From: Schmidtea nova
Taxonomy: Eukaryota
NCBI GenBank assembly: GCA_044892505.1
Contig: CM097882.1
Location: 53,320,001 to 53,384,000, forward strand
DNA: 64,000 nucleotides
Direction: 5' to 3'
Made by a program: the position numbers and the translations under genes. Shown here in pieces: positions 11 to 57,965 of this stretch. The stretch's first letter is position 1, and every line of letters starts with the position of its first letter. The notes under the pieces were generated by a model. The model did no database searches. It was given only the letters and a program-made list of their open reading frames with translations, and was not told the origin of the DNA.

Positions 11-14978
<14,968 letters not shown>

Positions 14979-24400: not shown

Positions 24401-27400
24401 TAAATCATTATGAATTATATTTTGAATAGCTTCACTGATCCTACTTAATTGAATTTGTGAAGCTAGTTTTTGAAGTTTCGAATTATTTAGATCTAAAATA
24501 GACGAATAAATACGAATTCTCCATCTGAATAATGATGTTTAGCTCACGCAATATTCCAAGAAATAACAAAACTGACTTCTATTGCGTTTTTCAGTATGTT
24601 TGCTATTAGGATTTTCATCCTTTAAAACATTAAAATCAGTTTTACAACAATTTGAATCCATGACTTTTATTTCAGAAAAATATATGTTATCAAAATAATT
24701 TGTTATTTAAACAAATTTCCAAAAAATATTTTTCTAAATAAAAATATTTTTATATTTTAAAAATCAATCTACAAGTTAATTTTTGAAAATTTAAAAATTT
24801 CTTAAATCTTCCAACTTCCTCATATTTGCAAAATGATGTTATGGTTGTTTGCTTAGTTAATAAGCTTGATTTTAACGATTTAAGCTTAACTTTCCTCAAT
24901 TCAGATACAATTGGAAGCTCAAGTGAAAAATTAAATATGACTTGCATCATAATGTCTCTTCAAGTGACCAACTTTATATTGTACAAGTGAACTCTGGTAA
25001 ATTAGACATGTTGGCTTGCCACCTTGATCAACACATCTTAATTCACCTTCGCACTTAGACTGAAATCCTCTTTTCTTCAAAATATTTTCTTTTTTGTTGG
25101 TGGATTTCAATTTTTTATGACTTCTTTTAACACTGAAATCTCATTTAGTTCCAAGTTCTTGGGATTGTGATTTATTTAATTAATGTATTAAGTATTTCAG
25201 TGAAAAATACTTCTAGCAATTAATTATATAGTCTTGAATAAAATGCAAATTTATCACTGACGTTTATCAGATCAAGATAATAATTAAACTGATTATTTTT
25301 TATTAATCAACTTGTGGATTGTTAAGTATAACAACTTTTAATAAAAAAATTGATTTACAAAAATGTTTAAATTACTCACTTTTAATCACACTGTTAAAAT
25401 TTCTTATTTAAAAATATGAAATTAATATATTTGCATTTTATATATAGAAATATTATTATTATTAAATTATTTTATTTGATAAAAAAACTAATTAAAATAT
25501 TGTGGCTCGTGATCCACCATTCGTTAACGTCTGTGAAAATCTATTCTATTTTTTAACCATAATCCAACTACTCATGTCTGCAAAACCAATGATGCTAACG
25601 ATGTATTTTTAGTTTTCACGTAGGAAGTGGTGTAGAAGAGATGGATGCTTGGTCTCAGTGTATTGAATATAGTGCTAAAATATTTCAAATAATGGAAAAG
25701 GCAGGATATAAACCATATTTATTAGATATAGGAGGCGGCTTTCCCTCAATGAGCATGATAAATTCAACAGAAAATACAGAAAACCAACTTCAATTTGGCA
25801 AAGAATGCCAAAATATTAACATGGTTTTAGATAAATATTTTCCCGCCTCGGAAAATTATGTAATAATTTGTGAACCAGGCGCTTATTTTACAAATGGTTC
25901 TGGTTGTTTGTTTTGTCAGGTAATTAAATATTCCTATGATAAATTAAAAGATTTCGAGTAGGTTATTGGAAAAATAGAAGAAAATGATGTAAATGAACAA
26001 ATAAATAATAATGAAATGGTAAATATTTATTTGTTTTAAAAGAATTATGTTTAATAAAAATTAATTATTTGATAATTTAATTAATATTATAAAATGAATA
26101 TTTTTTATCATTTACAAGGTTGAGTTTTCTAGAGCAATTATTTTATGTTTTTAATAAAAATAAAAATAGATTTTCTTAAATCGGTTATATGAAGATTAGT
26201 ACAGATCTGTTAAATGTAATTTTGGGAAATTTTATTTTAAATAATAAAAAATAAAAGTTTGTTTTGTAAACCATTTTTAGCGTTTGTTCAAAACTTCGCT
26301 TATTTGATCTAATTTTGCTTAAATGGAATTTAATCGTAACGATATCTGCAAATTAATCTATTATTATTGCAAGAGAGGCCTGTTGACCTCTGAAATTATT
26401 GTTGTAATAAATGCCAGTCTTCTTAATAGCCCCGTAACTCAAAGAACACACAAAGGTTCGGTTTTAAATTTCAATCACATCAATTTCACATTCAAAGAGT
26501 TGGAACGGTTAGATTGTCCTTCACTTAATATTGATAAGAAGGCCATTCGTGGCCATCGTCTGTAGCCACGTTTAGAAATGTTGGGTTATTAATTTGAGTC
26601 TGTTTAGTTTCTGACTCCTCGTGCTCCTTTAATAACGATATAACTGAGACCCAACACAATAAATTTTATTTATTCAAATCTGAGAATTCACAACAACTAA
26701 AATCAGTACAATCTTTATTGTTTCTACACTCTCTTTCTGCACTCTTTGTCTAAGCGATAAGGGTAGGTCTACCAAGGGTAGATTGCCATTTCTGATATGC
26801 TTGATTGGCTAATGTTACTGCACGAAAATCTCCTTTTCACTTACTCAATCTTTATAACTGGCGATAATTCTCTTCGATCACACTGACAATTTTCTGTTTT
26901 TCTTGCCGCTTTTATAGTTTACCAATTTGTCAATAAATTGATTATGTTTTCCAAACTTGCGATCAAATTCGATTATAATTTTCCGTAATTGGAATTTTGA
27001 TAATTATAATTCGCACTAATTTGATCCGCGCTTTTGTTAATTCGTTTACGTCTCGGGTTTCCCTTTGCTCGGGCTCTCTACTAGCCCTGGTCTCCCATGA
27101 ACTCGGACTTCCTCTTGACTCGGGTTTTTGAATATCTTTTTCTGGGGACCCCACCATTGATATTTTATTATCATATTCGTGCTCATCTCTCCATTTGCCA
27201 TCCGAACATACCAATTTCCCCTGTTAAATCTTTATTTTTTATTTTTCAAATTTTTAATTAATTTTTTGTACTTATTTATTAATTGTGAATTTCACGTTTT
27301 TCAGCCTTTTTATTGATCTTCTTTCAACATTCGTATTGATCCATATTTTTTACCAACAATCACCAACGGATAATTTCAAGGACTTTTATATTGGCCTATT

Positions 27401-31604: not shown

Positions 31605-32546
31605 AATTTAAAAGTTTAAAATCTACTACCTTAACAATTTTTTATTAGAATAAATATTTTCATTTTAAATTTTTAAAACAACAAAGCTTATATTTGTTGG
31701 GCTGGTGTAATCAGAAACTAAAGTAGTATAGACATTAGGAAAAACAGAAAAAATAAATTATTTAATCCATAGACACATAATCTCGTAAAGTTAAAACAAA
31801 ACCAAATATAAATATTCTAAAAGTAACTAGAATAAACTATAACTATATAATTTTCAAAGTTATCTCTTGTGCACAAATAAATTGTTGATTACGCCTAAAG
31901 GCATTTCAACGATAATTCTTGTTTAATTTTAACAAAAAAGAATATTTATGTGTGTGTGTGTAATTGTAATTATATATGTAAATATGTGTATAAAAAACCA
32001 TCAATGAGATGTAAACGAATTATAATCAAATAAATTTGATTTAAAAATAAAATGAATTGCAAAGCAGTTTCGGCAAATAAATCAAATAAAATTAGATTAT
32101 CGAGAGAGGTGAGTGACATTGCGTTGAAATGTATTGTGATTGCCATCAACAATGATTATGCACCAAATTTCGTATGCATGACTGCACCCGTGTTCGTTGT
32201 TTTACACGTAGTGTCAACAGAAAAAAAAGAAAAACATGTGTGATAGATGATTGAGTTTCACGGTTCAGTAGTCAAAGTGAATGGTAAATGGATTGTTAAT
32301 AATTGTTACACAAAAATAGCCAAAGAATGTTTCTAAAAACAGAACATAAACATTTTTTGGAAAATACGTGCATGCAGTCTCGACAGAGTTGGCATGTGAG
32401 CATGCACGTATTGTCCGAGCGACTGGTGTTGGGGGTCAGTAAGATGAGAGAAAACCGACAGAAAAGCCGCCGCATACACTCACAGTTTTACTAACAGTTG
32501 TATAGAAATCCCGCATCAGTAGTGTACACACCGACGTCAAAAACAG

Positions 32547-32554
32547 TATATAAA
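32547..32554 (+). promoter_or_regulatory. TATA box of LTR-like copy A
   Basis: AAAAACAGTATATAAAGGC, conserved as AAAAATAGTATATATAGGC in copy C (~50338-50356, -) within homologous flanks. Confidence 0.55.
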
Positions 32555-33420
32555 GGCATTAGAAATTCATAATTTCAACACTCAGAAAGAACACTTATTC
32601 TGAAACCAAATATTTGCAGTGCACTTTGAGGGATTCAGGAGAGATTCCGCCAGCCAGCTCTGATCATGTATATATTTTTATTTTTTTTAGCGAGTAATTG
32701 GATGTCTTTTATAAATGCTTCGGAATTGTTGCTATAAATTTTGCGATATTATTATAATAATATGATCTTACTGTACTGTGTTTTAATGAGTTTATATAAT
32801 TTATAGATGTTTATGTGCTTCATGGGAGCTATATGCTACTAGGGTGCAAGTCTGAGGTCATGGTGCCCAGAGGTTCCACACCCGGTGAGAGAGTAGACGA
32901 TGTATAAAATTTAATAGATACAAAGGTTTCCTGTTGATGAAGTTGCACATGGGTCGAGAAAATAAAAAAGAAATAGGTAGAAGTTGCGATAAATGTACAG
33001 TGAATTCGAGGTCACCGAGGTTATTAGGCATATTAACCTGGGGCAGAGAGAAAACAAATTACTAAAGCGAGTATACAAATTTTAGATAAAATATATGTAA
33101 CCCAAGGGGAAAGTTCCTACACCCTACATGCACCGAAACACAAAGTGACAGTAGTACAGCAGCAAACCATATGGACAGATTTTCCGTCAGTGGTTCCAAG
33201 CGAGCGAGCTAAGGATCGAAGTGATAACAACGGGAAATTAGAGATAAATAAAGGCCATAACGTAATCGACTAAATTACCCTAAGATACAATTACTGATCA
33301 GTGATAAATTGCGGAAGTTGCGTTAGAAATATTTTGAATGCTACCTAATTATTAAATAGCAAATATTGATTAAATTTTCGACGAAATTGACATAAGTGGT
33401 AATAAAAATAGCAAGCGCAA

Positions 33421-33556
33421 GACCTTCTATCGGCAGAACGAACCAAAGGGGAAAATAAATGGGAGTAGTTTCGGTGACGGAGCTCACCTGCCCATCAATT
33501 TTCCACCACCGTATGCAGTACCAACTTGACTAGTAGGGAATAGTCAAGGGTATACG
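33421..33556 (+). ncRNA. Conserved structured RNA domain (copy A)
   Basis: Hairpins at 33459-33495 and 33510-33556 preserved with compensatory substitutions in copies at 41097-41232 (-) and 49654-49792 (-). Transcription not demonstrated. Confidence 0.65.
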
Positions 33557-34065
33557 CGTGTAGTAGTCATTTTATGCAAGGTTATGGGTGAGGGATCCCT
33601 AGAACACAACATTCAAATATTTACAAACCCACCCACAAACCAGCATATTGGAAATTGAATAAATAAATAAATACTTTTGAGTTCCTTACCAAAATTGTTT
33701 CACAATTAATTTCAGTGTGTGTTCTCCTACTCCGAACGATTTTCGAGCTAACTCGGTTAAATTATAAACATATTCGCAACTGTTTCTCTACTACCTTGAT
33801 ATCTATTTCTAAATTTTGTACATTAATTTTCTCTAAATCTCATTGTGATATAATTAATGAATTGATTAAATGCATTAATTAGATTTTAATGAGTACGTTG
33901 TTTAAATATTAAGATTTGCGAGAATTATTTAATTTAATAAAGTTTTGGAATTATTATTCTAATCTTATTTAATTCTTATTTATTTAATCGTTGGAATCGC
34001 ATAAAGGTATTATTATTATATTTTTAATCTGTTAGAGATTTCAGATGAAACCATAAAAATATATC

Positions 34066-35460
34066 ATGGCGTCACGAAATGAAAAAGAATACTTGCAGGA
34101 ATACTTATTTAAAGATAAGTTATCAAAATTGATTATATTCAAGAAGCGAGGAACCAGCGTTAAAATTGAAGATCATTTGATTCTCGTCAAAAGTTTTTTT
34201 GATCAGTTTGCCAAACACAACTTGGTAACGGAAGATGAAAAAATTAAAGTATTTTTAAAATACTTTGACGAAGAAATAGTAAAAGAGATCGAATGCTTAG
34301 GAGACATTAGCACAGCCAGAACCATAGACTGGTACGAAGAAAAGATTCTCAAAATCGTAGAAGTTAAAAAGTCAAAGACCTCAATAATTATAGATATCCT
34401 CGACGACACCAGACAGGAAAGAGATGAGACTGTGGTAGATTTTGCGAAAAGATTAAGAATGCAATGCCTAAGTTACGAAGGCGAAAAAGAAAAAATGATG
34501 AGACATGCCTTTATAGAAGGTGTGAGAAACCAAACTCTCTCGGAAGCCTTGAAGATCAGAGAGCCAAAAACGTTGGAAGAAGCTATAGAAGAGATTAAAA
34601 TGGAGCACGTGGGCGTAAAAGAAAAGGAAAACGAGTATAATAAAGTTAGGAAACTGGCTACAACGGACGAAGGGACAATAAATTTTTTAAAAAGAGAAAT
34701 TGACAGGTTGAACAAGATTATTGAAGAATTAAGGAAAGAAAAATTGAGAAAACCGAATAAAAATCAGAGAGAAGTAAGAGAAGACATTTCTTCCTATCAG
34801 CAAAAGGTTACATGTTTTAAATGTAACAAAGAAGGGTATATAGCGAGATTTTGCCTAAAAAAAGATGACATTGGAAACATTGATACAAGGACGTGCTATA
34901 AATGTGGAAAAATGGGACATATAGGAGCGAATTGCAGAATAGGTACAAATAGGATGAATGCGATTAAATGTTACGAATGTGGTGGTGGTCATTTGGCTAG
35001 ATATTGTGACAAGAGGAATAAATTCAGATATTTTCAAGAAGAAGATGAAGAGGAAGAAGAAGGTTCAGCGAGAGGATCAAAGACCGATTCTGAAGGTGAC
35101 AAGCATGTAAATACTATAACAGAAGTAAGGTTTACTAAAGGGACGAAGAAACCAAAGGAACATTTAGAAGAAAAATATGCAAATTATATAAACAGTCAAG
35201 GGGAAAAACCAAAAAAACAGTTAAATAAATACCAGTCTACAATTATCTCTAGTAGTAGACCGGAAAAAGCGCGGAATAAACCAATAACTGAATGTTACAT
35301 TGGACATCGAATGGTTAAAGTTATGTTTGATATGGGTGCAGATTTAAATGTTATTAGCCAGGAGTTGACAGATAAACTAATAAACGCAAATCCAACCATA
35401 AAGATGTTTAATTCAAAAACAAGAGTTACATGTGCTAATGGAAGCTCAATCGATGTGTAG
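34066..35460 (+). CDS. gag: Gag with three CCHC knuckles fused to aspartic protease (464 aa ORF)
   Basis: CFKCNKEGYIARFC (H->Y), CYKCGKMGHIGANC, CYECGGGHLARYC. Protease motif MFDMGADLNVI (D-T/S-G altered to D-M-G). Ends in a premature stop. Confidence 0.85.
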   Translation: MASRNEKEYLQEYLFKDKLSKLIIFKKRGTSVKIEDHLILVKSFFDQFAKHNLVTEDEKIKVFLKYFDEEIVKEIECLGDISTARTIDWYEEKILKIVEVKKSKTSIIIDILDDTRQERDETVVDFAKRLRMQCLSYEGEKEKMMRHAFIEGVRNQTLSEALKIREPKTLEEAIEEIKMEHVGVKEKENEYNKVRKLATTDEGTINFLKREIDRLNKIIEELRKEKLRKPNKNQREVREDISSYQQKVTCFKCNKEGYIARFCLKKDDIGNIDTRTCYKCGKMGHIGANCRIGTNRMNAIKCYECGGGHLARYCDKRNKFRYFQEEDEEEEEGSARGSKTDSEGDKHVNTITEVRFTKGTKKPKEHLEEKYANYINSQGEKPKKQLNKYQSTIISSSRPEKARNKPITECYIGHRMVKVMFDMGADLNVISQELTDKLINANPTIKMFNSKTRVTCANGSSIDV

Positions 35461-36162
35461 GTCAAATCCAGCTAAACATAGCAATAGGACCGATTGTGAC
35501 AAGTCACATATTTGACATTATGTCAAATATATTCCCACATGTTTATATCGGGATAAGAAGTATGAAGAAGTATGGAATCATCATTAATGCACCAGAAGAC
35601 TGCATAGAGATCCAAGGAATTAGATTGCCATTCTTATCAAAAACTATTCCAGCGGCTTCTTTAAACGAATCCCAACTGTATTAGAGAGTCGTAATAAGGT
35701 TGAAGGGAGAGACGAGACTTGGGGAGACGGTTATCAGGATTATTATAGAGTTATTGTATCAAGTAACGTACAGATGGAAACAGTCGGAGAGTATTTTATC
35801 AGAGGAATGGCAATAGATAAGGAGAACAAGAAATTAGAGAATCTTAATCAAAGTTGTGTGTTTAATGGTGAAAGAGTCAAAATGGCAGAGAGAGACATTT
35901 TGATAAGTGATTACGTGTTTAAAGTTGATGAAGGATATGTATTAGAAAAATCGATATGATGGAAGGTGGTATTAAACAGTTGCATGCAGGAACAACTTTA
36001 GGTTTTATAGAAAGATTTTACGATAAAACGGCAGAAAAGGCTACTATTGGAAGTATGTCATCATCAGAATAGCGAAGAGAAATCACGGCAGTCGATAAAA
36101 ATTTACGAAGTATAGAAGATTCTTTATATCGTACTATTAAATATAGCGAAAGAAAAGAGTTA

Positions 36163-38723
36163 ATGAAAACAATAGAAGAAATTAAGGATGTTTTTAGTAA
36201 ATATAAAATGGATATTGGGAAAATTACATCAGTACATCATAAAATTGACACTGGGAACGCCCGGCCAATTTCTTTTAAACCGAGAAAGGTACCATTAGGT
36301 CTGGAGGAAGAGGTTGACCACATGGTACAAGATTTATTAAGAGCTGGAATTGTGAGACCGAGCAAGTCAGCGTGGAATTTTCCGATTGTGGTTGTAAGAA
36401 AAAAGAATGGTGATATTAGAATGTGTGTCGATTATAGGGCAATGAACGCAAAGACGGCAAGACCAATTTTTCCAATACCAGCTAGGGAAGATCTTTTTGA
36501 TACACTTGGAGGAGCTTATGAACATGGTCTTGAGAAATGAAAATTGGATTAAGTGTGTCGTATACTTGGATGATGTTCTTATATTTGGGAGAACCATCAA
36601 AGAACATAATCAAAGATTGAGCGCTGTATTACGCCGAATTAAAGAGTCAGGACTGAAATTATCACCAGCTAAGTGTTCATTTTAAAAACATAAGTTAATT
36701 ATTTAGGACATGTCATCAATGAGAATGGGCTAAAAACTGACCCAGAGAAAATTGAAAGTATACGTTCATGGACAATGCCAACATGTAAAAAAGAATTGCA
36801 GACCTTCTTAGGATTTTGAAATTATTACCGTAGATTTATAAAAGATTATACAGCGACATCAGAAAAATTGAGTTCAGTGTTAAAGAGTGAAAATAATTTT
36901 GTGTGGAATGAAAATAGAAAAGGAGCATTTTACGAACTTAAAATCAGACTGTCAACACCGCCGGTGATGAAGGGGAATATATACCGCCAAATAATGAAGG
37001 GGAATATATACTGGACACGGACGCTTCGCACAATAGTATGGGAGCCGTTTTGTCACAGCGACAAAATGGAGAAGAACGAGTTTTGTGTTATGCATCAAAA
37101 ACCATGAGTAAGAGTCAGAGAAAATATTGTATAACAAGAAAAGAACTATTGGTAATATATACGTTTGTGCTGAAATTTAAGCATTATTTGATGGGGTCAA
37201 AGTCTTTAGTGAGAACGGACCACCAAGTGCTGAAATGGTTATTGAAATGGGATAATCCAAACACATCACAATACTGTGTTTGGAGAGCCGAACTAGAAGT
37301 CTACGACATGGTTGTCGAATATAGAAAGGGCGAAGAACACATAAACGCTGATGCGATGTCCAGGTTACCTCCATGTGAACAATGCTTACTTAAGCATAAA
37401 GAACCGATGAAGCGTCGAAACGTAAAAGTATACGATGAATTAATAGATGTTAAAAGGACAGAAAACGACGATCTAGAATCAGAGCGGGTTATGTGTGAAC
37501 TGAAAGTACATGAACATGATTGGGGACAAGACGAGGATGTCGACATACAAACCATAATTAAAAGGATGAAACGTTGAGATTCTCAAAATGACAGAAACGT
37601 AGAAGAGATAAGAAGAGGCAGCAGAGAATTACAAACAATATGGGCACACAGAAAAAATTAAGGATAAGGGGCGATCTACTTTATATCCAGGAGGATAACG
37701 AATACAGATTGATACTCCCAAAATTAAAGAGGAAGAAATTAATAATACAATTTCACAGTTTTCTAGGACATCCCGGAATTGAAAAAACTTATCGAATAAT
37801 AAGGAATGAATATTATTGGCCTAATATGGAGTCTGATATATCAGAAGTAATAGGAAAATGTCAAGAATGTGCACATAACAAAAACAGAAACGGTAGAATA
37901 AGGGCACCATTTCAAAGCATAATTGGAGAAAAACCATTTCAGATAATAGCAATCGACATAACAGGACCGTTCAAGACAACACAGAAAGGATTTAGGTATA
38001 TACTGGGTATAATCGATTACTTTTCGAAATATATAAGTTTAATATCAATGAGGAATATCGAGACAGAGAATATTGCAGAAGCGGTGTGGTCGCAGTGGAT
38101 TTCAAAGTTTGGAGCACCAGAACAAAATACACTCAGATTGTGGAAGTACTTTCCAATCAAGATTGTTTGCCGAATACTGTAAAATATTAGGAATTAGGAA
38201 GACAGTTACCTCACCTTACTACCCACAGAGTGATGAACTGGTAGAACGACTATTTGGAACTGCAAAAGGTATGATTGCAGCGATGTTAGAAGAGAAGAAG
38301 AGCAAAAACTGGAGTGTAGTATTGCCGGTAATAGAGTTCGGATTAAGAACTACAATACAAAAGTCAACGAATTATTCACCATATGAAATAGTATTTGGAA
38401 ATCAAGCAAGATTACTCATATCAGCAATAAAGGTTAATACAAGATATTTTCAAGACTATGACGATTACGTCCAACAGCTGCAACTAAATTTATCAGATAT
38501 TCACAAGAAAGTAACGGAAAATATGGAGAAAAAAAGAGAGTGCATCGCCGCAAGATATAATCAGAATCGATGGCACAAAAAATTGATAGTAGGAGATAAG
38601 GTAATGATAAAGAATGAAGACAGAAGGGGTTTCGAGAAGAAGTATATAGGGCCATTCATAATAGAAGAAATAATGGATAAATGGATCCATGTATTATATA
38701 GTGACAAAGCTAAAAAAGAATAA
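36163..38723 (+). pseudogene. pol: pol remnants (RT, RNase H, integrase) with frameshifts, stops and an RT deletion
   Basis: PSKSAWNFPIVVVRKK, RMCVDYR, YLDDVLIFG, DTDAS, LVRTDHQ, HHCC (H..GHPG..CQEC), IAIDITGPF, IHSDCGSTF, YIGPF. RT jumps from DTLGGA directly to LMNMVL, so the motif block in between is missing. Confidence 0.9.
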
Positions 38724-39714
38724 GAAGAAATTATAATCAAATAAAAGTAGTAAATGACGAGGGAGATTCCTGTAGAGTAAAGCCAACCAACACTAGTATT
38801 TGGTCAAAGAAACCGAAGACCAATTTAAAACCGATGAGAAGGTACCCATTACGGACGACGAGAAATCAGAAACCTAAGTACCGTTCGGTTGCCAGCGAGA
38901 GGGATGTGATATAATTAATGAATTGATTAAATGCATTAATTAGATTTTAATGAGTAAGTTGTTTAAATATTAAGAGTTGGGAGAATTATTTAATTTAATA
39001 AAGTTTTGGAATTATTATTCTTATCTTATTTAATTCTTATTTATTAAATCGTTGGAATCGCATAAAGGTATTATTATTATATTTTTAATCAGTTAGAGAT
39101 TTCAGATATAACCATAAAATATATAACACTCGTTCAATTACTATCTCTCCTCTCAAATTCTCTACTAACTCATTCCAATTTCTACCTTTGCACTCTAAAT
39201 TATTATATGCTTGTAAGGCATGCGCTTTTAAATATAATTGAATCCGTCGTTTTAACTCATATTGTGTCCATCCCCAGACATCAGCGTATTGAGCAATTTC
39301 ATCAAAAAAATCATCAAACTTCTAAGGTCATCCTTTAAAATGTTCTACAGGTAAAGTTTTTATCAATATTTTACGATTAATATTGTCAGCATCTCAATTC
39401 TGCCAAATATTATGAATGTTATCATTATTCTTATTAATTTTCGCCATTCTATATATTATTGGATTTCGCAAATTATAAATTATCTCTGGTTCTCTATCTA
39501 TTTTAATATTTTATTAATATTCAAATTTTAATTTTAAGTTATCGAAATAATGATTCTTTAAAATGTCCAATAATTTTATTGAAATAAATCCCAATATTAA
39601 TTAATATAATCCTCTGATTGCAATTTCTATCCCCAATCGATATTATTTTAATTTATATAATTTAATTTATATATTTTAATTTATATCAACTTGATGATCT
39701 TATATAAATAAATA

Positions 39715-40798: not shown

Positions 40799-40998
40799 AT
40801 TATTATCAATAATTCTCATAATGACTATAGATCAAAATTTTTTTTTATAAACAATAACACAATATTTCGGCACAGCCTTTATCAAGTGTGTATTTCAAGT
40901 GAAATACACACTTGATAAAGGCTGTGCCGAAATATTGTGTTATTGTTTATAAAAAAAAATTTTGATCTATAGTCATTATGAGAATTATTGATAATAAT
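40799..40998. repeat. Perfect 200-bp palindrome (99-bp arms, 2-nt AG loop)
   Basis: 40799-40897 is the exact reverse complement of 40900-40998. Confidence 0.95.
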
Positions 40999-41096
40999 GT
41001 TGGGATTGTGGAGGGGTTGATAAAGGTGTACATGTACGTTGGATTCTTCTAGGGATTCTCCGTCCACAGCCCCACATAACTATTATCGTCGACACG

Positions 41097-41232
41097 CATA
41101 TGCCCTTGACTATTCCCTACTAGTCAAGTTGGTACTGCATACGGTGGTGGAAAAATGATGGGTAGGTGAGCTTTGTTGCCAAAACTACTCCCCATTTATC
41201 TTCCCTTGGGTCCTTGCTGCCGATAGAAGGTC
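41097..41232 (-). ncRNA. Conserved structured RNA domain (copy B)
   Basis: Same hairpin architecture as 33421-33556, with G-U/G-C exchanges in the outer stem. Confidence 0.65.
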
Positions 41233-41527
41233 TTACGTATTTACATTCTATGGATGTTCGTCCCCCAATGACTTCTGCGTTACGTGTCCTTATGATATAT
41301 CGTCTACTTTCTCTTAATGTTCGCATTTTTCTCTCCTTAGTCGCTCTACGAGCCTATGAAGCAATCGCTGCGAGGTAACGGTCGGTTGAGATTTTATGAC
41401 GAGATTTGTTATTTCTACGATTTAATTGGGTTGTTTATTTTATTAAGTAAAATCATACGATGAGAGATAACATTTACAAAACATTTTTATTTAAATGAAA
41501 ACATTTTATTTATTTATCGTCGATATG

Positions 41528-42114
41528 TCATTGTACGAATTCCAGCCGGATTTCCTGGATTAATTCCTCCTCTGTCAACGTATTAAGTTGGTCGATTTGC
41601 TCGTCCAGTCGTCTAGCGAATTCTCGACGACGACGACGTTGCCGCGATCCCATTCGGTGTTTTCGTTGCGGTGGACTGATCATGGGTGCAGGAATTGTTG
41701 GTTTAGGCCGGTTTTGGTGAGGAGTCGGCAAATCTTCTGCGACCAGGGCTGGAGCCACGAAAATTCTCTCTTCGTCTCGCAAGCGACGTCTTGGTAGGCA
41801 CTCTGAGTCCATCGTTGGGCTGTGATCGGTCGTATCAATGCTCGTAGCTCCGAATCGATGTAACTCTTGGTTACCGCATTCAAGCAGTTACGCAATTCTC
41901 TCTGAACTGCATCGAGCTCCATTTTGGTTTCGGCTAGTGCTTCCTGCACACGCTCCAATTTTTGTGATTGTTTCTTCATTTGGTCTGGTGAAAACCACCT
42001 CGCTTTCAATTCGTCGTTGGCTACCGTGAGCCGTTTGATTTGCCGTTGTTGATCTCTCAACTTCCGGTCTTGTATTTGATTTATCGCTTTCTTGGAGGTT
42101 TCCGTAGTGAACAT
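41528..42114 (-). pseudogene. Orphan ORF2: coiled-coil N-terminus plus Pro/Arg-rich C-terminus, one frameshift near 41810
   Basis: ATG at 42114. ORFs 41680-42114 and 41528-41812 overlap in adjacent frames. Intronless, visibly GC-richer than host exons. RKHRMGSRQRRRRREF motif. Confidence 0.5.
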
Positions 42115-42452
42115 GCTATCTAAACGTTACAATATTTAATTCACAAGTGATTCTATCGACAACATTATTCGAACGAAACGACTATTATTTTTAATGAATG
42201 AGTTGTATCCTAACGGTTTTAAATATAGTAGTTTCACAAAGGTTTATTTAACTGTTTCCTTACTGTTAAAAGAATTTTCCTAATGACGATAAATATTCTA
42301 ATGTACACGATTACAACGATAGATTTTGATTAAAAATGTTTCTAACTATAGTTCACCTCTACTACGGAACGAAATGAAACGCTAGATGGTACTAAACATT
42401 TATTACATTAAAATCGGTGATAACACAACATTGGGGATGAATTCGTCAATAA

Positions 42453-42978
42453 TCAATCTTCGGCCCTCTTCCCTCGATATGAGAATATCGAGCGGATTTG
42501 TAGGTTTGTGTTGATGTTCGTTGGGGTGGACTGAGCCTGTTGGAACCGAGCCTTCTCTGCTTCCCGAAGGGGTCGGATTGCAGTGTTAAAAATAAACCCC
42601 AATTCCTTGAACGTGGATGCCGGGATGTATCCCCAGTAGATAACACAATTCGGGAACCCTTGTTGATCCGACATTAAGATGAACCATTCGGCGTGCCATA
42701 GTTCGAATTCTTCCTCTGGGATGATCGGCCCAGTTGGCACAGCCTCGGTACCACACGTGATGACGTGGGTGGTCCCATACCGTAAAGGGACATGCTGTCT
42801 CCAACTCTCGGCGCCATGCCCACATTTTTTGGTGCATCTGTTGTAGGATTTCGAATGGAGCGGGTTTTAATGGGCTTATTCGGACCCGATTTCGACTCAG
42901 CGAACCCCGTTTCCAGCCCCACTGGTTCTCGTTTTTGATGGTCCTTCGTTTTCGGTAGGTTAAACTCTGCTTTGACAT
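42453..42978 (-). pseudogene. Orphan ORF1: Trp/Arg-rich protein, one probable frameshift near 42740
   Basis: ATG at 42978. ORFs 42586-42978 and 42453-42740 overlap. Intronless and GC-richer. No family recognised. Confidence 0.45.
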
Positions 42979-45149
42979 TTCTCTATAATGATTATAACTT
43001 TATAATAGTTAATAGATTGATTCATAGGTTAATTATGGTAGATATGATCTCTCATCGTACTGATTATATTATTTGTCTCCCCTTTTAGGCCCTGACCTGA
43101 ATATGTGAGAAAAACTATTCATCTTAGTGATATATGTTACCCTCATGTCGGCTGAGGTCTACCTATTACGGTGGGATTTACAGTGAACCTTTTAATAAAA
43201 ATTCGATTGGTAAGTAATTTGTGTTGATAACGACAACATTGTTGTGAAAAAACTCCTTCTCGTTGTGCCCCTCTTAGTTGTCACAAATCACCCCTTTTTG
43301 AGTACAAAGTGGTTGAAATAATCTCTCAGGGTTTGTTGGGTGTCCCATGTGCAAATTCTGTTCAGAAGAAAAAAAAATCATATTTTGTTATTTATTACTT
43401 TACCGTGTGTGGAGCCCTCGAGCACCACGCCACGGACTGACACCTTGGGAACCTAAAGCTCCCAGTCAGCGCACTGAATTTAATATATCAAAATATTGTA
43501 TCATATTAATAATTAGTCATAACAAAATTTATAACAATCAAAGATTTAATAATTTATAACATAAAATGAAAACATAGCAAAAAAACATAGCAAAAAAACA
43601 TAGCAAAATCATAGACAATACATATAACAATGAATAAAAATTTACCGAGTATTTCTGAAAAATTGAACCGGTCGGTCAAAGTGAAATTCGCGCAAATTGA
43701 TCAGTTAAATTCGGTAATATTATAACAGTCTGAAGTCTAAAAGCTCTGTCAGTCTAGTGTAAATTAAATTCTGTTAGCTCAAATTAGTCTCAACTTTAGT
43801 CTGAACTTAGTCTTAGTCTAATTCTAGTGAATTCTGGTTTTATGTAAAATCTGATCAGTATTTATACTGATCAGTCGGGTCTAGACTGACCAATCAGGTT
43901 TGGCCAATTTCATGGTGGGTTTGATTATTATTTTGTTGATCCAATTAATTTTTATTTTTTAGATGGGATTCTTTCTCGGTGGTCTGGTTTTAAAAACAAT
44001 TATTCAATGAAAAGTACTATTATTTTGTTTTAATCATTTATATTTTATTTATTTTAGGTGTCCCTTGGGCCATTTATTGGTTACATTATTGCTAATTCAT
44101 TTATTTTTATCTATAATCTATTTCTTAATTTGTTTCTATTTTATCTAAATTGTTTTGTTCTCTAAAATTACTGTTTCTCCTTTTTTTCTTATATTTTCTA
44201 TTTTTCTTTTAATTATTATATGTTTATTTTACTTTTTCCTNNNNNNNNNNNNNNNNNNNNNNNNNNNNNNNNNNNNNNNNNNNNNNNNNNNNNNNNNNNN
44301 NNNNNNNNNNNNNNNNNNNNNNNNNNNNNNNNNNNNNNNNNNNNNNNNNNNNNNNNNNNNNNNNNNNNNNNNNNNNNNNNNNNNNNNCTGTTAACTTGCA
44401 ATATCGTTGTTTAAATAAGGTATGTAATTATATTTGCACACCATCAACCTTATTAGCTTTTGATATACATAATTTTAAATATTTTGAGCCTTGTTTGTTA
44501 TGACCATGAAAAAACCTTTTCAATTATATATAATTTGTTTGAAAAAATTTGAACTTTTTTTTGTTTCAAAATTTTATTTTTCAATCACACACCTTCAAAA
44601 ATAAGACCACAGTGTGCAGTTCACAAAGGCCTTTCGAATGATACCAATTTTTACCTTGGTACGTTAAATTTTTAACATTATGTTATTTTATTTTGAAATG
44701 AGTCATCGATTAAGTCATAAAATTCAAATTTGAAATTAGACATCAATGCATCATAGGACGAATCATCGATGTATCATAACGTTGAGTCTTGAAAATGATG
44801 AGTTATCGATGAGTAATCAATTAAAACTATTTAAAAATATAAAAATTAAAAAAAACATTTTAATCAGTCATAAGTGAGTCATCAATGAGTCAGACAATCA
44901 AAAATTTTTTAAAAATAATCAAAATTAAAAATAATTTTCGAGTCATCGATGCGTCATAAAATAATGTAGAAAATAATAGATTAAAAAAAGGTTTAAAAAA
45001 GGTAAAAAAGGGTGAAAAAAGATTGAAAATTTTTTTGACCCCCTATCTCCGCTAAAAACCCCCAGAGGGGGTATGTCTTTGTTAAAAAATATTTTGCGCC
45101 CACGCATGTCTTTGTTCTTGGCTCCACACATCTACCTACTACCGTTCTT

Positions 45150-48912: not shown

Positions 48913-49568
48913 TTGAGATTTATTGAATAAAAAAAGACGTTAAATGTGAAACCAAAAATCAAGCATCATAATTATATTTATTTAAACAATACACCAACAG
49001 TCTGTAATTAAGGGTCACAAAAACATTTATTACAAGTAGTTTGTGAGTAATAGCTATTTATTATAAGTTTTTAAACATATTTTAAAGCTATTTTAGCATA
49101 TTTTATATTTATTTAATATNNNNNNNNNNNNNNNNNNNNNNNNNNNNNNNNNNNNNNNNNNNNNNNNNNNNNNNNNNNNNNNNNNNNNNNNNNNNNNNNN
49201 NNNNNNNNNNNNNNNNNNNNNNNNNNNNNNNNNNNNNNNNNNNNNNNNNNNNNNNNNNNNNNNNNNNNNNNNNNNNNNNNNNNNNNNNNNNNNNNNNNNN
49301 NNNNNNNACTGAAAATATATATACGGAAAAAAGTAAGTCATTATAAATTTTATTTGTAATAATTGTGTTCCTTTTTCTTCTGATATGTTTTATGGCTCTT
49401 TTCCCTGTTATAAGAAGTCCGATTTTCCCCTTCGACACTATGTTTCAGATACCTTTAGGTTCAAAACCCATTTAACGGTCAAGGTCTTAATAATCTTTAC
49501 CCCGTTCCACTATTTCAATCAATAACATTTTGCCATGGTTTGTATATCTATGAAAATTTAAGTGTTGA

Positions 49569-50945
49569 TGTTATGGGTTGTTATGAAATTTATTATTATT
49601 CAATAGGGATTATTGCGACTCACACCCTATTATAAAATGTCAACTACCTCGCTCGTATACCCATAGTTACTCCTTAACTAACTATTTTGATACTGTACAC
49701 AGTGGCGAGAATCTAATGAACAGGTGAGCTTCGCTACCAAAACTACTCCTCACTATATTATCTCTTTCGGTACCTGCTGCCGATAGAAGGACTCACCCGG
49801 CTTTACGGTCCTGTCACATGATTTAATTCTTATTTTTCTATCACTTTATTCTATCTTAGGTCTACGCTTGCTCACTCTCAAAAATATACCAATAACCCCC
49901 CTCCCCCTTAACCTCCTCTGGGTTCCTTTACAATTATGTCCTAAGCTACTTTTACAAATCGTCCAAATTTCATAATCAAAAAATTTTAGTTTGTTCTCAC
50001 CACGCTCGCGGAACTCCAAAGAATCCCTAACAGTGTGGCTATCACCCTCATGGCATTACGCCACGAGGACGCATCTATTTATTTTATGAGCAGAGTTTTA
50101 ATAGGTAATCATGATAATAACAAAATGCATTTTCAAATATTTATTAACGAACAAATTGATAATTCCTATCATAATACTTTCAAAACCAGTTAAATAACAA
50201 AGCATAAAACTTAAGTATCAGATTTCTTTACTGAACAAATTCAATCAACTCTGGTGTTGGCTGGTGGAATCAAATTAAACAAAATTATCTGTCCACAAAT
50301 TTTTAGTTTTAAAAAATGTTTTGGTATGATATTTCAACGCCTATATATACTATTTTTGAGTGGCTGTGTGTCTAGTACCGATACGTGTTTGTTACATAAA
50401 TGTTAGCAAAACTGTAGTTGTATGTGTCGAATTTTCACTCAATTTTCTATCCCTTTACCGACTCCCAACACCAGTCACTCGGACACTACATGTAAGCTCG
50501 TATATTGACTCTGTCGAGACTACATGAACGTATTTTCCAAAATATTTTTCTTTTACTATTTTTAATACACATTTCTATCATCATTAAATGTTCACTAAAC
50601 CAGCTAGTGGTAAGTCTAAAAATTTTAAATAATTATCAATCACAAATCACGTGGCCACCCATCGATTCTCTCATTTTCACACGGTGAAAAACCAACAAAA
50701 CCAAACCACCACCAATTAACTCATGTCAACTGTCGATGAATTGCGAATTGTGACAACGCAAATTCAGAGTCACGTAAATTCAATTCAATTTCATTTATTT
50801 ATTTATAAAAATTGTTTTATTTTATCTTTAATTCAAGTTTGTTTACAAAATTTTGTTAATTCTATTTATTTTCAAAATTTATTTTTCTTAACTGTACTAA
50901 ATTATGTGTCTATTAATAATTTATTTTCTCTGTTTTTCGATTCCA
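49569..50945 (-). mobile_element. LTR-like non-coding element copy C
   Basis: Collinear homology to copy A: GAAAAACAG..AAATAAATTATT..TAGACACATAAT, GTCTCGACAGAGT...TGTCCGAGYGACTGGTGTTGGG, TATA block, GATTCCRCCAGCCA, structured block. Ends CCCATAACA. The 5' end is replaced by the 310-bp array. Confidence 0.7.
49654..49792 (-). ncRNA. Conserved structured RNA domain (copy C, most diverged)
   Basis: Stem ATAGTTA/TAACTAT replaces TTGACTA/TAGTCAA of copies A and B at the same position. Confidence 0.65.
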
Positions 50946-52079
50946 CCTTTGGTGTATAAATCTTCTGTATTTCTAAAAATATTTTTTTAATATAAATGTA
51001 TATTTCTCCTCTTCTAAAATGTCTTTATAAATAATTTCACTTATATTTGTCTATGTATTTGTATTTTCTATTATAGGATTTTTGTGTTTTTTGAGATAAT
51101 TTGCTTTTCTCTTCTATAGTATAGGCCCGTAATTTATTACTTTGCTTTTAGTTTTTGTTCTTTTCTGCACTAGTTGTGTATATTTGTTTTATGTATAATT
51201 TAGATTGTTATTATAGATACATTAATTGTTGCCTGCTTGGCTCTTAATTTATGTCCTTTGGTGTATAAATCTTCTGTATTTCTAAAAATATTTTTTTAAT
51301 ATAAATGTATATTTCTCCTCTTCTAAAAATGTCTTTATAAATAATTTCACTTATATTTGTCTATGTATTTGTATTTTCTATTATAGGATTTTTGTGTTTT
51401 TTGAGATAATTTGCTTTTCTCTTCTATAGTATAGGCCCGTAATTTATTACTTTGATTTTAGTTTTTGTTCTTTTCTGCACTAGTTGTGTATATTTGTTTT
51501 ATGTATAATTTAGATTGTTATTATAGATACATTAATTGTTGCCTGCCTGGCTCTTAATTTATGTCCTTTGTGTTTTTTGAGATAATTTGCTTTTCTCTTC
51601 TATAGTATTACTTTGCTTTTAGTTTTTGTTCTTTTCTGCACTAGTTGTGTATATTTGTTTTATGTATAATTTAGATTGTTATTATAGATACATTAATTGT
51701 TGCCTGCCTGGCTCTTAATTTATGTCCTTTGGTGTATAAATCTTCTGAATTTCTAAAAATATTTTTTTAATATAAATGGATATTTCTCCTAGATCCTCTC
51801 CTATAAATGGCATAGTTTATTCCGACGAAACTTCTAAAATGTCTTTATAAATAATTTCACTTATATTTGTATTTTCTATTATAGGATTTTTGTGTTTTTT
51901 GAGATAATTTGCTTTTCTCTTCTATAGTATAGGCCTGTAATTTATTACTTTGCTTTTAGGTTTTGTTCTTTTCTGCACTAGTTGTGTATATTTGTTTTAT
52001 GTATAATTTAGATTGTTATTATAGATACATTAATTGTTGCCTGCCTGGCTCTTAATTTATGTCCTTTGGTGTATAAATC
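50946..52079. repeat. Tandem array, ~310-bp unit, ~4 units
   Basis: Unit start CCTTTG recurs at ~50946, 51255, 51565, 51726 and 52063 (spacings 309, 310, 161, 337). Confidence 0.95.
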
Positions 52080-52102: not shown

Positions 52103-53743
52103 TTATTTTTTATATTGAAAATCCGCGACTAGCGCTAAATGGTCACTGGGGAAATCTTTATTTGGAAGAGCTTGTTCACGCGTAACTTCCTCTAATGATG
52201 GCAACGGCACAGTACTCTTACACAACAGGTCGTTAGAGCTGTAAAATATATAATCTAGTTCTCCTGAGAAATCCAGAACGTAGTTAGTGAACGGACTATT
52301 ATAAGCTGATCTCAACAATAAATCATGATTCAAATACAAGCTTAACTCTTCTCCATCTGGCAATAAATGCTCCACAGCAACAGATCCGTTGAGCACTAGA
52401 TTGATCGTGTCACTATTCCGGAAATCATTAAAATCGCCAATCAAAACGACTTTAGCTTCGGGATATTTGCGCTTTATTGAACTGATTTGAAAAAGAATTG
52501 CTGCCACTTGAATATATCTAATAATATCAGCGGACGGTTTGAAATACAAATGGGTATTCAAAACGATCAATTGGTGATCAGCGGCCTGGAGAACACAGCC
52601 AGCAACGCACTGCTTAAGTTTGATCCAATTCTGGAGCAACGGAGAGGATTTCCTAATAAAATTCACGATTTCCCCAAAGCCCTCCAAGTGGCCACTGTTC
52701 AAAACTAATTTCGAAATCGACTCCACGCAGACATTTTCAACGAGTTCAAATTTCGATTTTCTCCACAAAATAGCCTGGCCTTCCATCGACAGTAAATCTT
52801 TCGTTTGAAACAGCCCATCGAAATAGTTACTGGCAAAGAACGGGTAGAGAAAATGTCGATAGATGTGCGATTCGACTTCCTGCAGGCAGATGATGTCGCA
52901 ATGATAATTGGATATTTCTTTTATCAGCAAATCTTTTCGGTAATCCGCATTTAAATACTCATCGGGACAGTGGCGAAATGTTTGTCTGCCGACTTCGGTT
53001 TCTGAGTAGATGCTTGCCAGTAAATTATAACTCAATATTCTGAACTCATTTTGTTCATTGTTATAATCACAAGTGTGATTCCATCGATTTTTAAGTGCAA
53101 TTTGTGACGGGCCTATTTGGATAGGGGTTGTTGATATGTTTTCAAAGACAATAAGCTCATTAAAACAAGAAGATTTTAATTTTAAAAAATGACTATTGTA
53201 ATTTTCTTTGAGTAAAACAGCGAAACCAGAATCGACTTTTTTCCAATCGCGTTTATTTAACGATACAAACCACTGGAAGCTTATATCGGATAATTCGCCC
53301 TGTTCCATGTCAATTTGCGGGAAAACAAAGGTATCTGTCAACAAGATTTTCGGTAATTTTATTGAGATAATCAATGGTACATTTAAAACAACCCTATAAT
53401 CAATTTTATTTATTTTCACAATTGTGTGCTCAATTAAAACATCTTTCAGTGACATGTTTAAAATATTTTCATCGAATATATGCTTTTCATTGATTATCGT
53501 GACATCATTTACTAATATTTCGGGATTTTCTTTGGATTCTAGTAATAATTTTTGTTTCTTTTTTCTTGATATCTTTTTTTCTAGCACATTATTGATTTTA
53601 AACTTAAATCGATTGATAAAATTAGACAAATCTTCCGTTTGGGAACGCAAGAATGAGAAATTTTCCTTAAAAAGCGAATGATAATTATAAACAAAGTCTA
53701 TCCTCATTTTGTCTGGCATTGATTTAGGAAATCTGATGTACAT
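52103..53743 (-). CDS. PDE12: 2',5'-phosphodiesterase 12 (CCR4/nocturin/angel EEP-family deadenylase), single coding exon, ~546 aa
   Basis: SYNLLA, DIICLQEV, EGQAILWR, NTHLYFKP..DIIRYIQ, GDFN, FTNYVLDFSGELDYIFY and PSDHLALVADF motifs, plus a long PDE12-like N-terminal region. First ATG at 53743. The frame is open to an AG acceptor at 53815, so the true start may lie upstream. Confidence 0.88.
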   Translation of the reverse strand: MYIRFPKSMPDKMRIDFVYNYHSLFKENFSFLRSQTEDLSNFINRFKFKINNVLEKKISRKKKQKLLLESKENPEILVNDVTIINEKHIFDENILNMSLKDVLIEHTIVKINKIDYRVVLNVPLIISIKLPKILLTDTFVFPQIDMEQGELSDISFQWFVSLNKRDWKKVDSGFAVLLKENYNSHFLKLKSSCFNELIVFENISTTPIQIGPSQIALKNRWNHTCDYNNEQNEFRILSYNLLASIYSETEVGRQTFRHCPDEYLNADYRKDLLIKEISNYHCDIICLQEVESHIYRHFLYPFFASNYFDGLFQTKDLLSMEGQAILWRKSKFELVENVCVESISKLVLNSGHLEGFGEIVNFIRKSSPLLQNWIKLKQCVAGCVLQAADHQLIVLNTHLYFKPSADIIRYIQVAAILFQISSIKRKYPEAKVVLIGDFNDFRNSDTINLVLNGSVAVEHLLPDGEELSLYLNHDLLLRSAYNSPFTNYVLDFSGELDYIFYSSNDLLCKSTVPLPSLEEVTREQALPNKDFPSDHLALVADFQYKK

Positions 53744-54050
53744 CAGACAGATAAAACGTTTTACATAAACAGTTCGCAAAGTCCCACTGATAAATAGTCT
53801 AATGTGACTGGCAATCTAAAATATAAAAATAGCTTTAAAGTAAATTACTATGCAGTGAATTACGCAATATTTATTACAATTTATAAAGATTATTGATTTA
53901 TTTTATATTTAAAAATGATTAGAAAAGAGTTTTAGTTTAATTAATAGCCCTATCAAATTTTTTATAAAATGCATTTAATCATATTTTTTTAAATTTTGCT
54001 TTCGATAAATGTGTGAATATTTAAACAAAATACGAATAGTGGTTAATCCA

Positions 54051-57000: not shown

Positions 57001-57965
57001 CATCGCTCGTCTGATACTTCATGCTTCTTCTCCTGTCATTTCGATTTTCTTCATTTATATCTGCGATCCCATTGACGAAATGTGTGCGATGGGATCGTTG
57101 GCATTTTTTCTTACTTCTACTTCATGTGGTTGACACTTTCGTATTCATCTCTAAAATCATAACTATTTATCTGCTGATCCTCTGTTTCTTTGTGTAAACA
57201 TGATATCTTCTTGACGTTGGTGTTGTAACTTCGTCGTCCATTCAGAAGGTTACGATTTCTAAAATTGTGTAAGTTCTTCCCGCAAATCAAACATCTATCT
57301 TTTAAAGGGCATTCAAAACGCCTATGTCCTTCTTCTCCGCAACAAAAACATTGACCTGATTTAAGTTCGCATGGCCTTGGTTCTGGTAACCCCATATGTC
57401 TGTTGTATAACCGTTTGGCTATATGTTTCAGAGATACAGTTATACATCTTCTTTTCACCCGTCTGCTGTCCTTTCTATCTTTGGGACTCTGATTGTTCAT
57501 ATCTTCCGTATTCTACTTTGTTTTCGAAACTTCTAGGTTCTTTTCGTATATATGGTCTTTGCTTTCCTCTCTCCAATTCCTCTCGATTCCTTAGACCTTC
57601 TTTGAATTTTTCCTCATATGACATTGGCTTTACTGCCAAAATTTCTTCAGATCTGTCCTCTGTTTTCTCATAAATTTTTGCTAAATCATTTCTCTCTTTG
57701 TGATCCATCTTAGGTTTCGTCGTAAGTACCTCTTTTAATCTTTTATCTATCACTCTGTGCATAATAATCTCACTTACAATTTCTTCCTTTGGCAATCCTG
57801 AATATAAAACTTCTTCCACAATTTTGAGAACTCGAATCTCGAAAGTAGCAAAACGTTCGTTGTCATCTTGTCTGATAGTTGCAAGATCCTTGATTTTATC
57901 AATATTGACTTTTTTATAGTGAATGTTTCTATAAACCATTCTCTAGCATCATCCTCTGATGTGCC
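54051..57965 (-). mobile_element. 5'-truncated, decayed Ty3/gypsy element
   Basis: Gag remnant, knuckle CFCCGEEGHRRFEC, protease WDSGASISVM, RT (PWNAPLV, RMCADYR, LDLGQAYYQV, YLDD), RNase H (LDTDAC, FIARTDHKAL), IN (SDRGKNF, HQSNGLVER, YDGPY). PPT GGAGGGGAAAG at ~54204-54214. Candidate 150-bp 3' LTR 54200->54051 (TGTA...TACA); this boundary is uncertain. Confidence 0.88.
56679..57165. repeat. 250-bp direct tandem duplication inside the gypsy element
   Basis: ATTGATGCCCCCGAATCCC at 56681 and 56931, with near-identical copies. Confidence 0.92.

What the first reader, a model, noticed from the sequence alone, without database searches (positions are those of the whole stretch)
33421..33556. Covariation-supported structured RNA motif shared by the three LTR-like units
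Hairpin 1: lower stem ATGGG/CCCAT (A, B) versus GTGAG/TTCAT (C), a conserved T/CAC internal loop, upper stem AGTTTC/GGAGCT (A), AGTTTT/AAAGCT (B), AGTTTT/GAAGCT (C), and a 6-nt loop GGYRRC. Hairpin 2: outer stem CGTATGC/GTATACG (A), CGTATGC/GCATATG (B), TGTGTAC/GTATACG (C), a 9-nt bulge AGTAYCAAM, and inner stem TTGACTA/TAGTCAA (A, B) versus ATAGTTA/TAACTAT (C), where 4 of 7 pairs are double compensatory changes. An invariant CCTTCTATCGGCAG lies upstream. I recognise no hammerhead, HDV, twister, snRNA, SECIS or IRE consensus. Inference: an undescribed cis-acting RNA element (packaging or RT-initiation signal, export element, or a novel ribozyme).
Basis: partly seen in the sequence, partly recalled or inferred. 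Interest (0 to 1): 0.82.

Follow-up and report, generated by a model that had tools for sequence, protein, structure and literature searches.

The report
Folded leader RNA of giant retroelements
The last ~240 letters of the terminal repeats of giant, envelope-bearing retrotransposons keep the same predicted base-paired shape across many diverged families and sit directly before the tRNA primer site, so they likely form the RNA platform that places the primer and starts reverse transcription.

Summary
The three units are solo LTRs of giant Burro-like gypsy elements (Gag, fusion glycoprotein, PR-RT-RH-IN, ankyrin, MATH). The motif is the 5' part of a ~240-nt domain that ends at the LTR's terminal CA. 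In full-length copies an exact 18-nt tRNA-Pro primer-binding site (PBS) follows (69 of 70 such LTRs carry the motif). A core pattern has 6,463 genomic matches. Added here: a third arm whose base pairs across the LTR-end/spacer junction, possible only beside the PBS; a C-loop-like bulge; a GNRA cap in most lineages; a probable loop-loop pseudoknot. Gag-only derivatives keep the domain. Best reading: a cis-acting U5-PBS leader for primer placement and reverse-transcription initiation (0.58). Extra tRNA contacts and PBS masking are predicted but did not beat shuffled controls. No Rfam match, no usable RNA data, no hits outside this genome. A new fold doing a known kind of job; a ribozyme is not excluded (about 0.08).

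The parts
31695..33645 (+). Unit A: solo LTR, 1951 nt, TGTTGGG...CCAGCA, 4-bp target duplication TATT
33415..33645 (+). Structured 3'-terminal (U5/PBS-side) domain of LTR A; cross-family homology starts 8-21 nt before CCTTC and ends at the terminal CA
33423..33444 (+). 5' conserved block CCTTCTA-N-CGG-Y-AG ... GRACC; predicted partner of the PBS (closed form) or of the tRNA T-arm 5' strand (primed form); not shown
33448..33504 (+). Hairpin 1: basal stem, lower stem 33459-63/33491-95, C-loop-like U/CAC loop, upper stem 33467-73/33478-84, GNRA loop 33474-77
33510..33556 (+). Hairpin 2: outer stem 33510-16/33550-56, internal loop with near-invariant CCAA 33517-24, inner stem 33525-32/33541-48, AGGG loop 33533-40
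33571..33645 (+). Arm 3: TTTATG (33571-76) complementary to the terminal CA plus the spacer found only in 5' LTRs; stem 33580-90/33630-41; CCCTAG 33596-33602 complementary to the hairpin-2 loop
40998..44240 (-). Unit B: 3.2-kb LTR (first ~20 nt not readable in the window), TATA near 43866, remnants of two LTR-internal ORFs (42453-42999, 41680-42126), domain at 40998-41233
49563..50947 (-). Unit C: older LTR of another lineage, 5' end cut off, domain at 49563-49793
32546..32556 (+). TATA-like box of LTR A (likely promoter; inferred)

Best explanation
This is the 3'-terminal ~240 nt of the LTR of Burro-like giant gypsy retroelements, lying directly before a tRNA-Pro primer-binding site, and it is predicted to fold into a three-armed leader that likely positions the primer and controls the start of minus-strand DNA synthesis. 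Shown: LTR identity, position, PBS, covarying hairpins 1 and 2, complementarity of TTTATG to the LTR-end/spacer junction, retention in Gag-only derivatives. Inferred: in the genomic RNA arm 3 ends 2-3 nt before the PBS, so reverse transcriptase would start at the foot of a helix; before priming the 5' block (CGGYAGY) would mask the PBS and close the domain; Gag/NC-chaperoned annealing of the tRNA 3' end would displace it and free GRACCCG to pair with the released T-arm 5' strand, as a primer activation signal does in HIV-1. Hairpin 1 (C-loop-like bulge, GNRA cap) and the loop-loop pairing would hold the tertiary scaffold and may also bind Gag.
For: Position fixed at 219-269 nt before the LTR end in 69 of 70 PBS-linked LTRs. 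PBS is the exact complement of the genome's tRNA-Pro(UGG) 3' end. The junction helix has 5-7 bp in 67 of 70 copies; in lineage D the spacer is 4 nt longer and the helix has 8-9 bp in 12 of 12, so both sides lengthened together. That helix cannot form in 3' or solo LTRs. Three 11-12.5-kb elements with Gag but no env/pol hit in the ~9.9 kb read keep the domain. Full-domain partition functions give 7-13 expected pairs between the 5' block and the PBS in 14 of 18 copies; seven C-to-U changes in that block face a G. GRAYCCG complements tRNA nt 49-55 in 18 of 21 lineages, the best-conserved 7-mer register. Extra template-tRNA contacts are a common requirement of retroelements (PMC5371799, PMC1865047, passages).
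Against: The tRNA contacts outside the PBS do not beat controls: 153 of 200 shuffled tRNAs reach an equally conserved 7-mer, and at the a-priori position p is about 0.07. The 5' block-PBS duplex is matched by 300 of 2,000 shuffled PBS sequences, has no double changes and 7 non-pairing cells, and is weak in 4 of 18 copies. The junction helix shows only one-sided changes in the plain alignment. Hairpins 1 and 2, the best-supported parts, have no demonstrated link to priming. No transcript ends, probing or activity data exist here.
Confidence: 0.58

Rival explanations
1. The domain is mainly a packaging/dimerisation signal: Gag recognises hairpins 1 and 2, and the AGGG/CCCU loop-loop pairing forms between two genomes.
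For: Kept in Gag-only derivatives; invariant internal loops look like protein sites; loop-loop complementarity of 5-7 bp in 14 of 16 parsed lineages; terminal blocks are swapped between families with unalignable upstream LTRs, as co-packaging would allow.
Against: Retroviral core packaging signals lie mostly 3' of the PBS (recalled); the loop-loop pairing is absent in lineage D, the lineage with the most pattern hits; no self-complementary loop was seen; it does not explain the junction helix. Not exclusive with the best explanation.
Confidence: 0.18
2. The domain controls 3'-end formation or export: it lets full-length RNA read through the poly(A) signal of the 5' LTR, or presents its own signal in hairpin 1.
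For: Long LTRs carry one TATA near +380-400, two ORFs and AATAAA at the second ORF's stop, 166-259 nt before the motif, so read-through must be arranged somehow; AATAAA or a one-letter variant lies in the base of hairpin 1 in several lineages.
Against: That hexamer is missing in lineage D, lineage E and L154/L165; no known export element matched; the GT and AG that could be splice sites are not kept in all lineages (L119 and L129 types).
Confidence: 0.11
3. The domain is a new self-cleaving ribozyme or an exonuclease block that creates the 5' end of the genomic RNA about 10 nt before CCTTC.
For: About 35 of 161 positions are at least 90% conserved, mostly in loops; tertiary-type features (C-loop-like bulge, GNRA cap, loop-loop pairing); sharp homology edge 8-21 nt before CCTTC with no shared promoter motif seen there.
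Against: No Rfam ribozyme match at gathering or E<=1 thresholds; a cut inside the domain would sever the strong-stop template, and a 5' end at its edge needs a 3' end beyond it, for which no universal signal was found; the homology edge is equally explained by selection or template switching.
Confidence: 0.08
4. No RNA function: the stems reflect shared ancestry of a repeat or DNA-level integrase sites.
For: The count of pairs with double changes alone is within the neutral range (20 of 27 against mean 16.1, max 21).
Against: 87% paired against at most 63.5% under neutral drift on the same tree; G-U pairs are tolerated in the sense orientation; integrase sites span only the terminal ~10-20 bp (recalled).
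Confidence: 0.03

Closest known systems
HIV-1 U5-PBS domain with primer activation signal (PAS)
   Same: Structured U5 directly 5' of an 18-nt PBS; an upstream motif complementary to the tRNA T-arm, masked by pairing in the leader (PMC1865047, passages).
   Different: Different sequence and fold, tRNA-Pro primer, ~240 nt with three arms, 6- or 10-nt spacer that is itself part of a helix; the PAS-like contact here is only predicted (p about 0.07).
Ty1/Ty3 primer-binding architecture
   Same: LTR retrotransposons with tRNA contacts outside a single PBS, T-arm and D-arm included (PMC5371799, passages).
   Different: Those have a bipartite PBS for tRNAi-Met; here the PBS is a full contiguous 18-mer.
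Burro/GYPSM1 giant gypsy elements
   Same: Over 20 kb, Gag with CCHC knuckles, MATH, fusion glycoprotein in frame before PR-RT-RH-IN, ankyrin repeats, thousands of copies (PMC6431247 passages).
   Different: The passages read describe proteins only, no LTR RNA structure, PBS or LTR-internal ORFs; LTRs here are 1.4-3.6 kb; BIR, BCL2 and dUTPase domains were not detected by Pfam.
C-loop 3D motif
   Same: Lineage D has U-CAC-U * A-U-A, fitting N1-C-A-C/A-U5 * A6-(0-2 nt)-N7 (PMC4551918, passages on Fig. 4 and Table 12).
   Different: The other lineages carry one extra C on the long strand; no 3D-motif scoring was run.

Membership tests
LTR of a Ty3/gypsy element | TG...CA ends with target-site duplication | tested here: met
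   A has TATT on both sides; exact 4-bp duplications in 11 of the 12 B-type loci with both ends found, 15 examined
LTR of a Ty3/gypsy element | Paired direct repeats around gag-PR-RT-RH-IN with a PBS after the 5' copy | tested here: met
   3,284-nt pair, 99.7% identical, PBS after the first
Burro-like giant elements | Over 20 kb with fusion glycoprotein in frame between gag and PR, plus MATH and ankyrin | tested here: met
   (two copies, B-type and lineage D)
Burro-like giant elements | BIR, BCL2, dUTPase-like domains | tested here: inconclusive
   no Pfam hit at E<=0.01; the paper used HHpred for some
Burro-like giant elements | Sequence identity or RT-tree placement with reference Burro elements | not testable with these tools
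   no reference sequence among the 120 listed hits; source paper not held
Retroviral-type U5-PBS initiation domain | Lies immediately 5' of a tRNA PBS on the sense strand | tested here: met
Retroviral-type U5-PBS initiation domain | Helix ending next to the PBS | tested here: met
   complementarity in 67 of 70 and 12 of 12 copies; predicted, not probed
Retroviral-type U5-PBS initiation domain | PAS complementary to the T-arm 5' strand | tested here: inconclusive
   18 of 21 lineages, p about 0.07 at the expected place, not significant without that prior
Retroviral-type U5-PBS initiation domain | Needed for efficient tRNA-primed initiation | not testable with these tools
   needs a primer-extension assay
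Known small ribozymes and other Rfam families | Match to the family covariance model | tested here: not met
   0 hits at gathering score in the window; 0 at E<=1 in six loci of five lineages
Self-cleaving ribozyme (new class) | Site-specific cleavage in vitro | not testable with these tools
   no assay; no RNA reads
C-loop | N-CAC-U * A-(0-2)-N loop between helices | tested here: inconclusive
   pattern met by eye in lineage D, one extra C elsewhere

The most novel reading that the evidence does not exclude
The domain is an active RNA: a new ribozyme or exonuclease-blocking fold that generates the 5' end of the genomic RNA downstream of the LTR's own two-ORF, polyadenylated transcription unit, and that also carries a tRNA-mimicking anti-PBS switch. 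This would explain how a 3-kb gene-bearing LTR yields a short strong-stop template.
Probability: 0.08. Interest if true: 0.88.

Novelty: new variant of a known kind. Interest (0 to 1): 0.5.

Why it matters
Structured primer-initiation leaders are mapped for a few retroviruses and yeast Ty elements. I found none described for giant envelope-bearing gypsy elements. Thousands of copies in about twenty diverged lineages give a natural covariation set, so the fold is well constrained before any bench work. The ~290-nt leader plus PBS is a small, testable RNA that bears on how 25-kb retroelements with 3-kb gene-bearing LTRs prime and package, and on why Gag-only derivatives spread. The model also serves as an LTR-end marker for annotation.

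Tried and rejected
Rfam: nothing. Other genomes: phage blastn none; viral contigs one chance hit and zero; metagenome pattern scan gave 118+ stretches, and the 80 listed plus the viral hit scored at most 17.5 bits with the model against 130-145 for the window copies; related-locus scans with the RT and three homologous proteins confirmed nothing. Close animal relatives are not held, so this is no evidence of absence. Expression: no RNA holder listed; four runs of unknown kind, contigs only, gave no GT-AG joints among those shown and cannot show ends. A PBS search allowing a 0-4 nt spacer found none; the spacer is 6 nt. A small 5' hairpin CGG/CCG is poorly supported (no double changes; absent in D). 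GGCAG/CTGCC alternative pairing: register not kept. CCAA as an anticodon-loop partner and CCNTAG as a D-arm partner: 19 and 11-14 of 21 lineages but within shuffle range. Splice-site reading: not invariant. One helix (columns 28-31) was mis-specified by one column and is disregarded. LTR ORF2 has no Pfam hit and no homolog at near lengths. Earlier findings: three look-ups returned nothing.

Full report
Observation. The three copies exist as described: A at 33423-33556 (+), B and C on the minus strand. A covariance model built from 29 other copies finds exactly these three in the window, at 130-145 bits. Sense-strand folding z-scores are -3.44, -2.73 and -1.59. Rfam gives no match in the window or in six loci at E<=1.

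What the units are. Genome searches with each copy gave 2,381-4,335 first-look candidates, 40 scored each. Homology stops sharply at a terminal CA. Unit A runs 31695-33645 from TGTTGGG to CCAGCA with a TATT duplication; 11 of the 12 B-type loci with both ends found (15 examined) have exact 4-bp duplications. These are solo LTRs. One B-type pair, 3,284 nt and 99.7% identical, lies 41 kb apart with a PBS after the first copy. Between them Pfam finds Gag/CCHC, a Monjiviricetes-type fusion glycoprotein in frame with PR-RT-RNase H, integrase, ankyrin and MATH, plus a nested Polinton-like insertion. A copy of the divergent lineage D has one reading frame of over 4,900 aa with Gag, MATH, fusion protein, PR, RT, RH, IN and ankyrin. 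This is the architecture reported for Burro/GYPSM1 elements of dugesiid planarians (PMC6431247, passages). No tool named the host, and no reference Burro sequence was available, so I call them Burro-like.

Position. The PBS is the exact complement of the 3' 18 nt of the genome's tRNA-Pro(UGG). It follows the LTR after a 6-nt spacer at 643 exact junctions (control 0). Of 70 such junctions read (the first 30 listed and 40 of the next 70), 69 carry the motif 219-269 nt before the LTR end; the seventieth has a degraded copy (34 bits). A core pattern of hairpin 1 has 6,463 matches (control 0); all 30 fetched show the flanking blocks and 3 are followed by the PBS. Lineage D escapes that pattern; its LTR-end pattern has 1,808 matches, and 12 of 20 fetched have the same PBS after a 10-nt spacer. 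Three 11-12.5-kb elements keep the domain but show only Gag in the ~9.9 kb read. The ordinary gypsy element at 33844-39128 lacks it.

Covariation. On a plain alignment of 23 copies, 88.4% of cells pair (shuffles 74.4%, slid partners 32-43%) and 27 of 46 pairs have double changes (3 of 500 shuffles reach this); several pairs occur in all four Watson-Crick forms. RNAalifold recovers the same core, 18 of 25 pairs with double changes. For a check that keeps relatedness I took the 111 model hits, dropped 2 truncated and 2 weak ones, reduced 107 to 33 representatives and realigned without structure. Six of the top seven of 12,090 column pairs are helix pairs; expected null counts are 0, 0.25 and 1.1 for the top three and about 6 for the rest. 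The number of double-changed pairs alone (20 of 27) is within the null (mean 16.1, max 21).

Anatomy added. The upper loop of hairpin 1 is GNRA in 13 of 21 lineages by automatic call and three more by eye; five lineages have other loops. The U/CAC loop fits the C-loop pattern exactly in lineage D and with one extra C elsewhere (PMC4551918, passages). The hairpin-2 loop can pair 5-7 bp with a downstream CCCTA in 14 of 16 lineages parsed (5 not parsed); it cannot in D, and one search shows only one-sided changes there. A third arm closes on the LTR end. Its base, TTTATG, pairs with the terminal CA plus the spacer: 5-7 bp in 67 of 70 copies and 8-9 bp in 12 of 12 D copies, where both sides are longer. 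Folds of three 5' LTR-PBS fragments all contain it (z -2.0 to -2.6). It can form only in the RNA that continues into the PBS.

Mechanism. Shown: location, PBS, hairpins 1-2, junction complementarity, retention without pol. Inferred: a leader that sets up tRNA-Pro priming. In two of three full folds the 5' block pairs with the PBS itself (not 99); 14 of 18 copies give 7-13 expected pairs, and seven C-to-U changes face a G while seven cells break. GRAYCCG complements the T-arm 5' strand in 18 of 21 lineages, where the HIV-1 anti-PAS lies (PMC1865047, passages). These two contacts would make a strand-exchange switch, but neither beats its control: 300 of 2,000 shuffled PBS sequences bind as well, 153 of 200 shuffled tRNAs give an equally conserved 7-mer, and p is about 0.07 at the expected place. 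GRAC also fits the m6A motif (recalled). The switch is a hypothesis.

Where transcripts begin and end is unknown. Long LTRs (3.0-3.4 kb) have a TATA near +380-400, two ORFs of about 160-210 and 190-200 aa, and AATAAA at the second stop, 166-259 nt before the motif; short LTRs lack the ORFs. That suggests a long R and a U5 location. Cross-family homology begins 8-21 nt before CCTTC, which fits a functional edge, template switching, or an RNA 5' end there. No RNA run was listed and the four contig sets laid cannot decide.

Known or new. Structured U5-PBS leaders with extra tRNA contacts are known for retroviruses, Ty1 and Ty3 (PMC5371799, passages; PMC1865047). Searches (listings) and passages of PMC6431247, PMC11410931 and PMC8532177 showed no RNA structure for Burro LTRs. 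The paper that named Burro is not held, and its supplements may describe the LTRs. No homolog of the motif was found outside this genome, but related animals are not in those collections; polyproteins with the same fusion-PR-RT order exist in other assemblies (P0002-P0004, P0006, P0007, P0025) and their LTRs could not be read.

Verdict. A real, well-constrained and apparently undescribed RNA fold with a most likely conventional role: new variant of a known kind, interest 0.5.

Noticed in passing
window 32815-32890 (+), 43400-43475 (-), 49995-50070 (-); also L148, L150, L151, L184: A second conserved two-hairpin element 280-450 nt after the LTR TATA box, ending in a splice-donor-like GGTRAG/GGTAAA; stems differ in sequence between families.
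   Followed up: partly
window 41680-42999 (-); L147-L183: Long LTRs carry two internal ORFs kept open across lineages; no Pfam hit for the B-type pair, no homolog found for the second.
   Followed up: partly
L103 near 3840-3870; LTR-PBS junctions: The sequence before the 3' LTR of the B-type full-length copy is not a plain polypurine tract, and the LTR-PBS spacer is 6 nt (10 nt in lineage D), longer than the usual 0-3 nt (recalled).
   Followed up: no
L371, L372, L373: 11-12.5-kb derivatives encode Gag with CCHC knuckles but no env/pol in the part read.
   Followed up: partly
L103-L105: A ~16-kb Polinton-like element (B-family polymerase, double jelly-roll, terminal inverted repeats) is nested in the full-length copy.
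   Followed up: no
G000:C1 from 459.61 Mb (L141-L146): tRNA-Pro(UGG) genes form a tandem array with a 308-bp unit; 1,106 pattern matches genome-wide.
   Followed up: no
window 33844-39128 (+) and 54503-57942 (-): Two ordinary, broken gypsy elements; the first has 224-bp LTRs 95.5% identical and sits 200 bp after unit A.
   Followed up: partly
window 5105-14339 (+), 25599-25961 (+), 52103-53815 (-): Myosin heavy-chain exons, a pyridoxal-dependent decarboxylase exon and an exonuclease/endonuclease/phosphatase ORF.
   Followed up: no
window 40799-40998: A perfect 99-bp inverted repeat directly after unit B, with related copies near 5000-5150.
   Followed up: no
P0002, P0003, P0004, P0006, P0007, P0025: Other assemblies hold polyproteins with the fusion glycoprotein and RT in one chain, 37-45% identical; one is annotated as a bacterial MAG protein, probably a contaminant.
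   Followed up: partly
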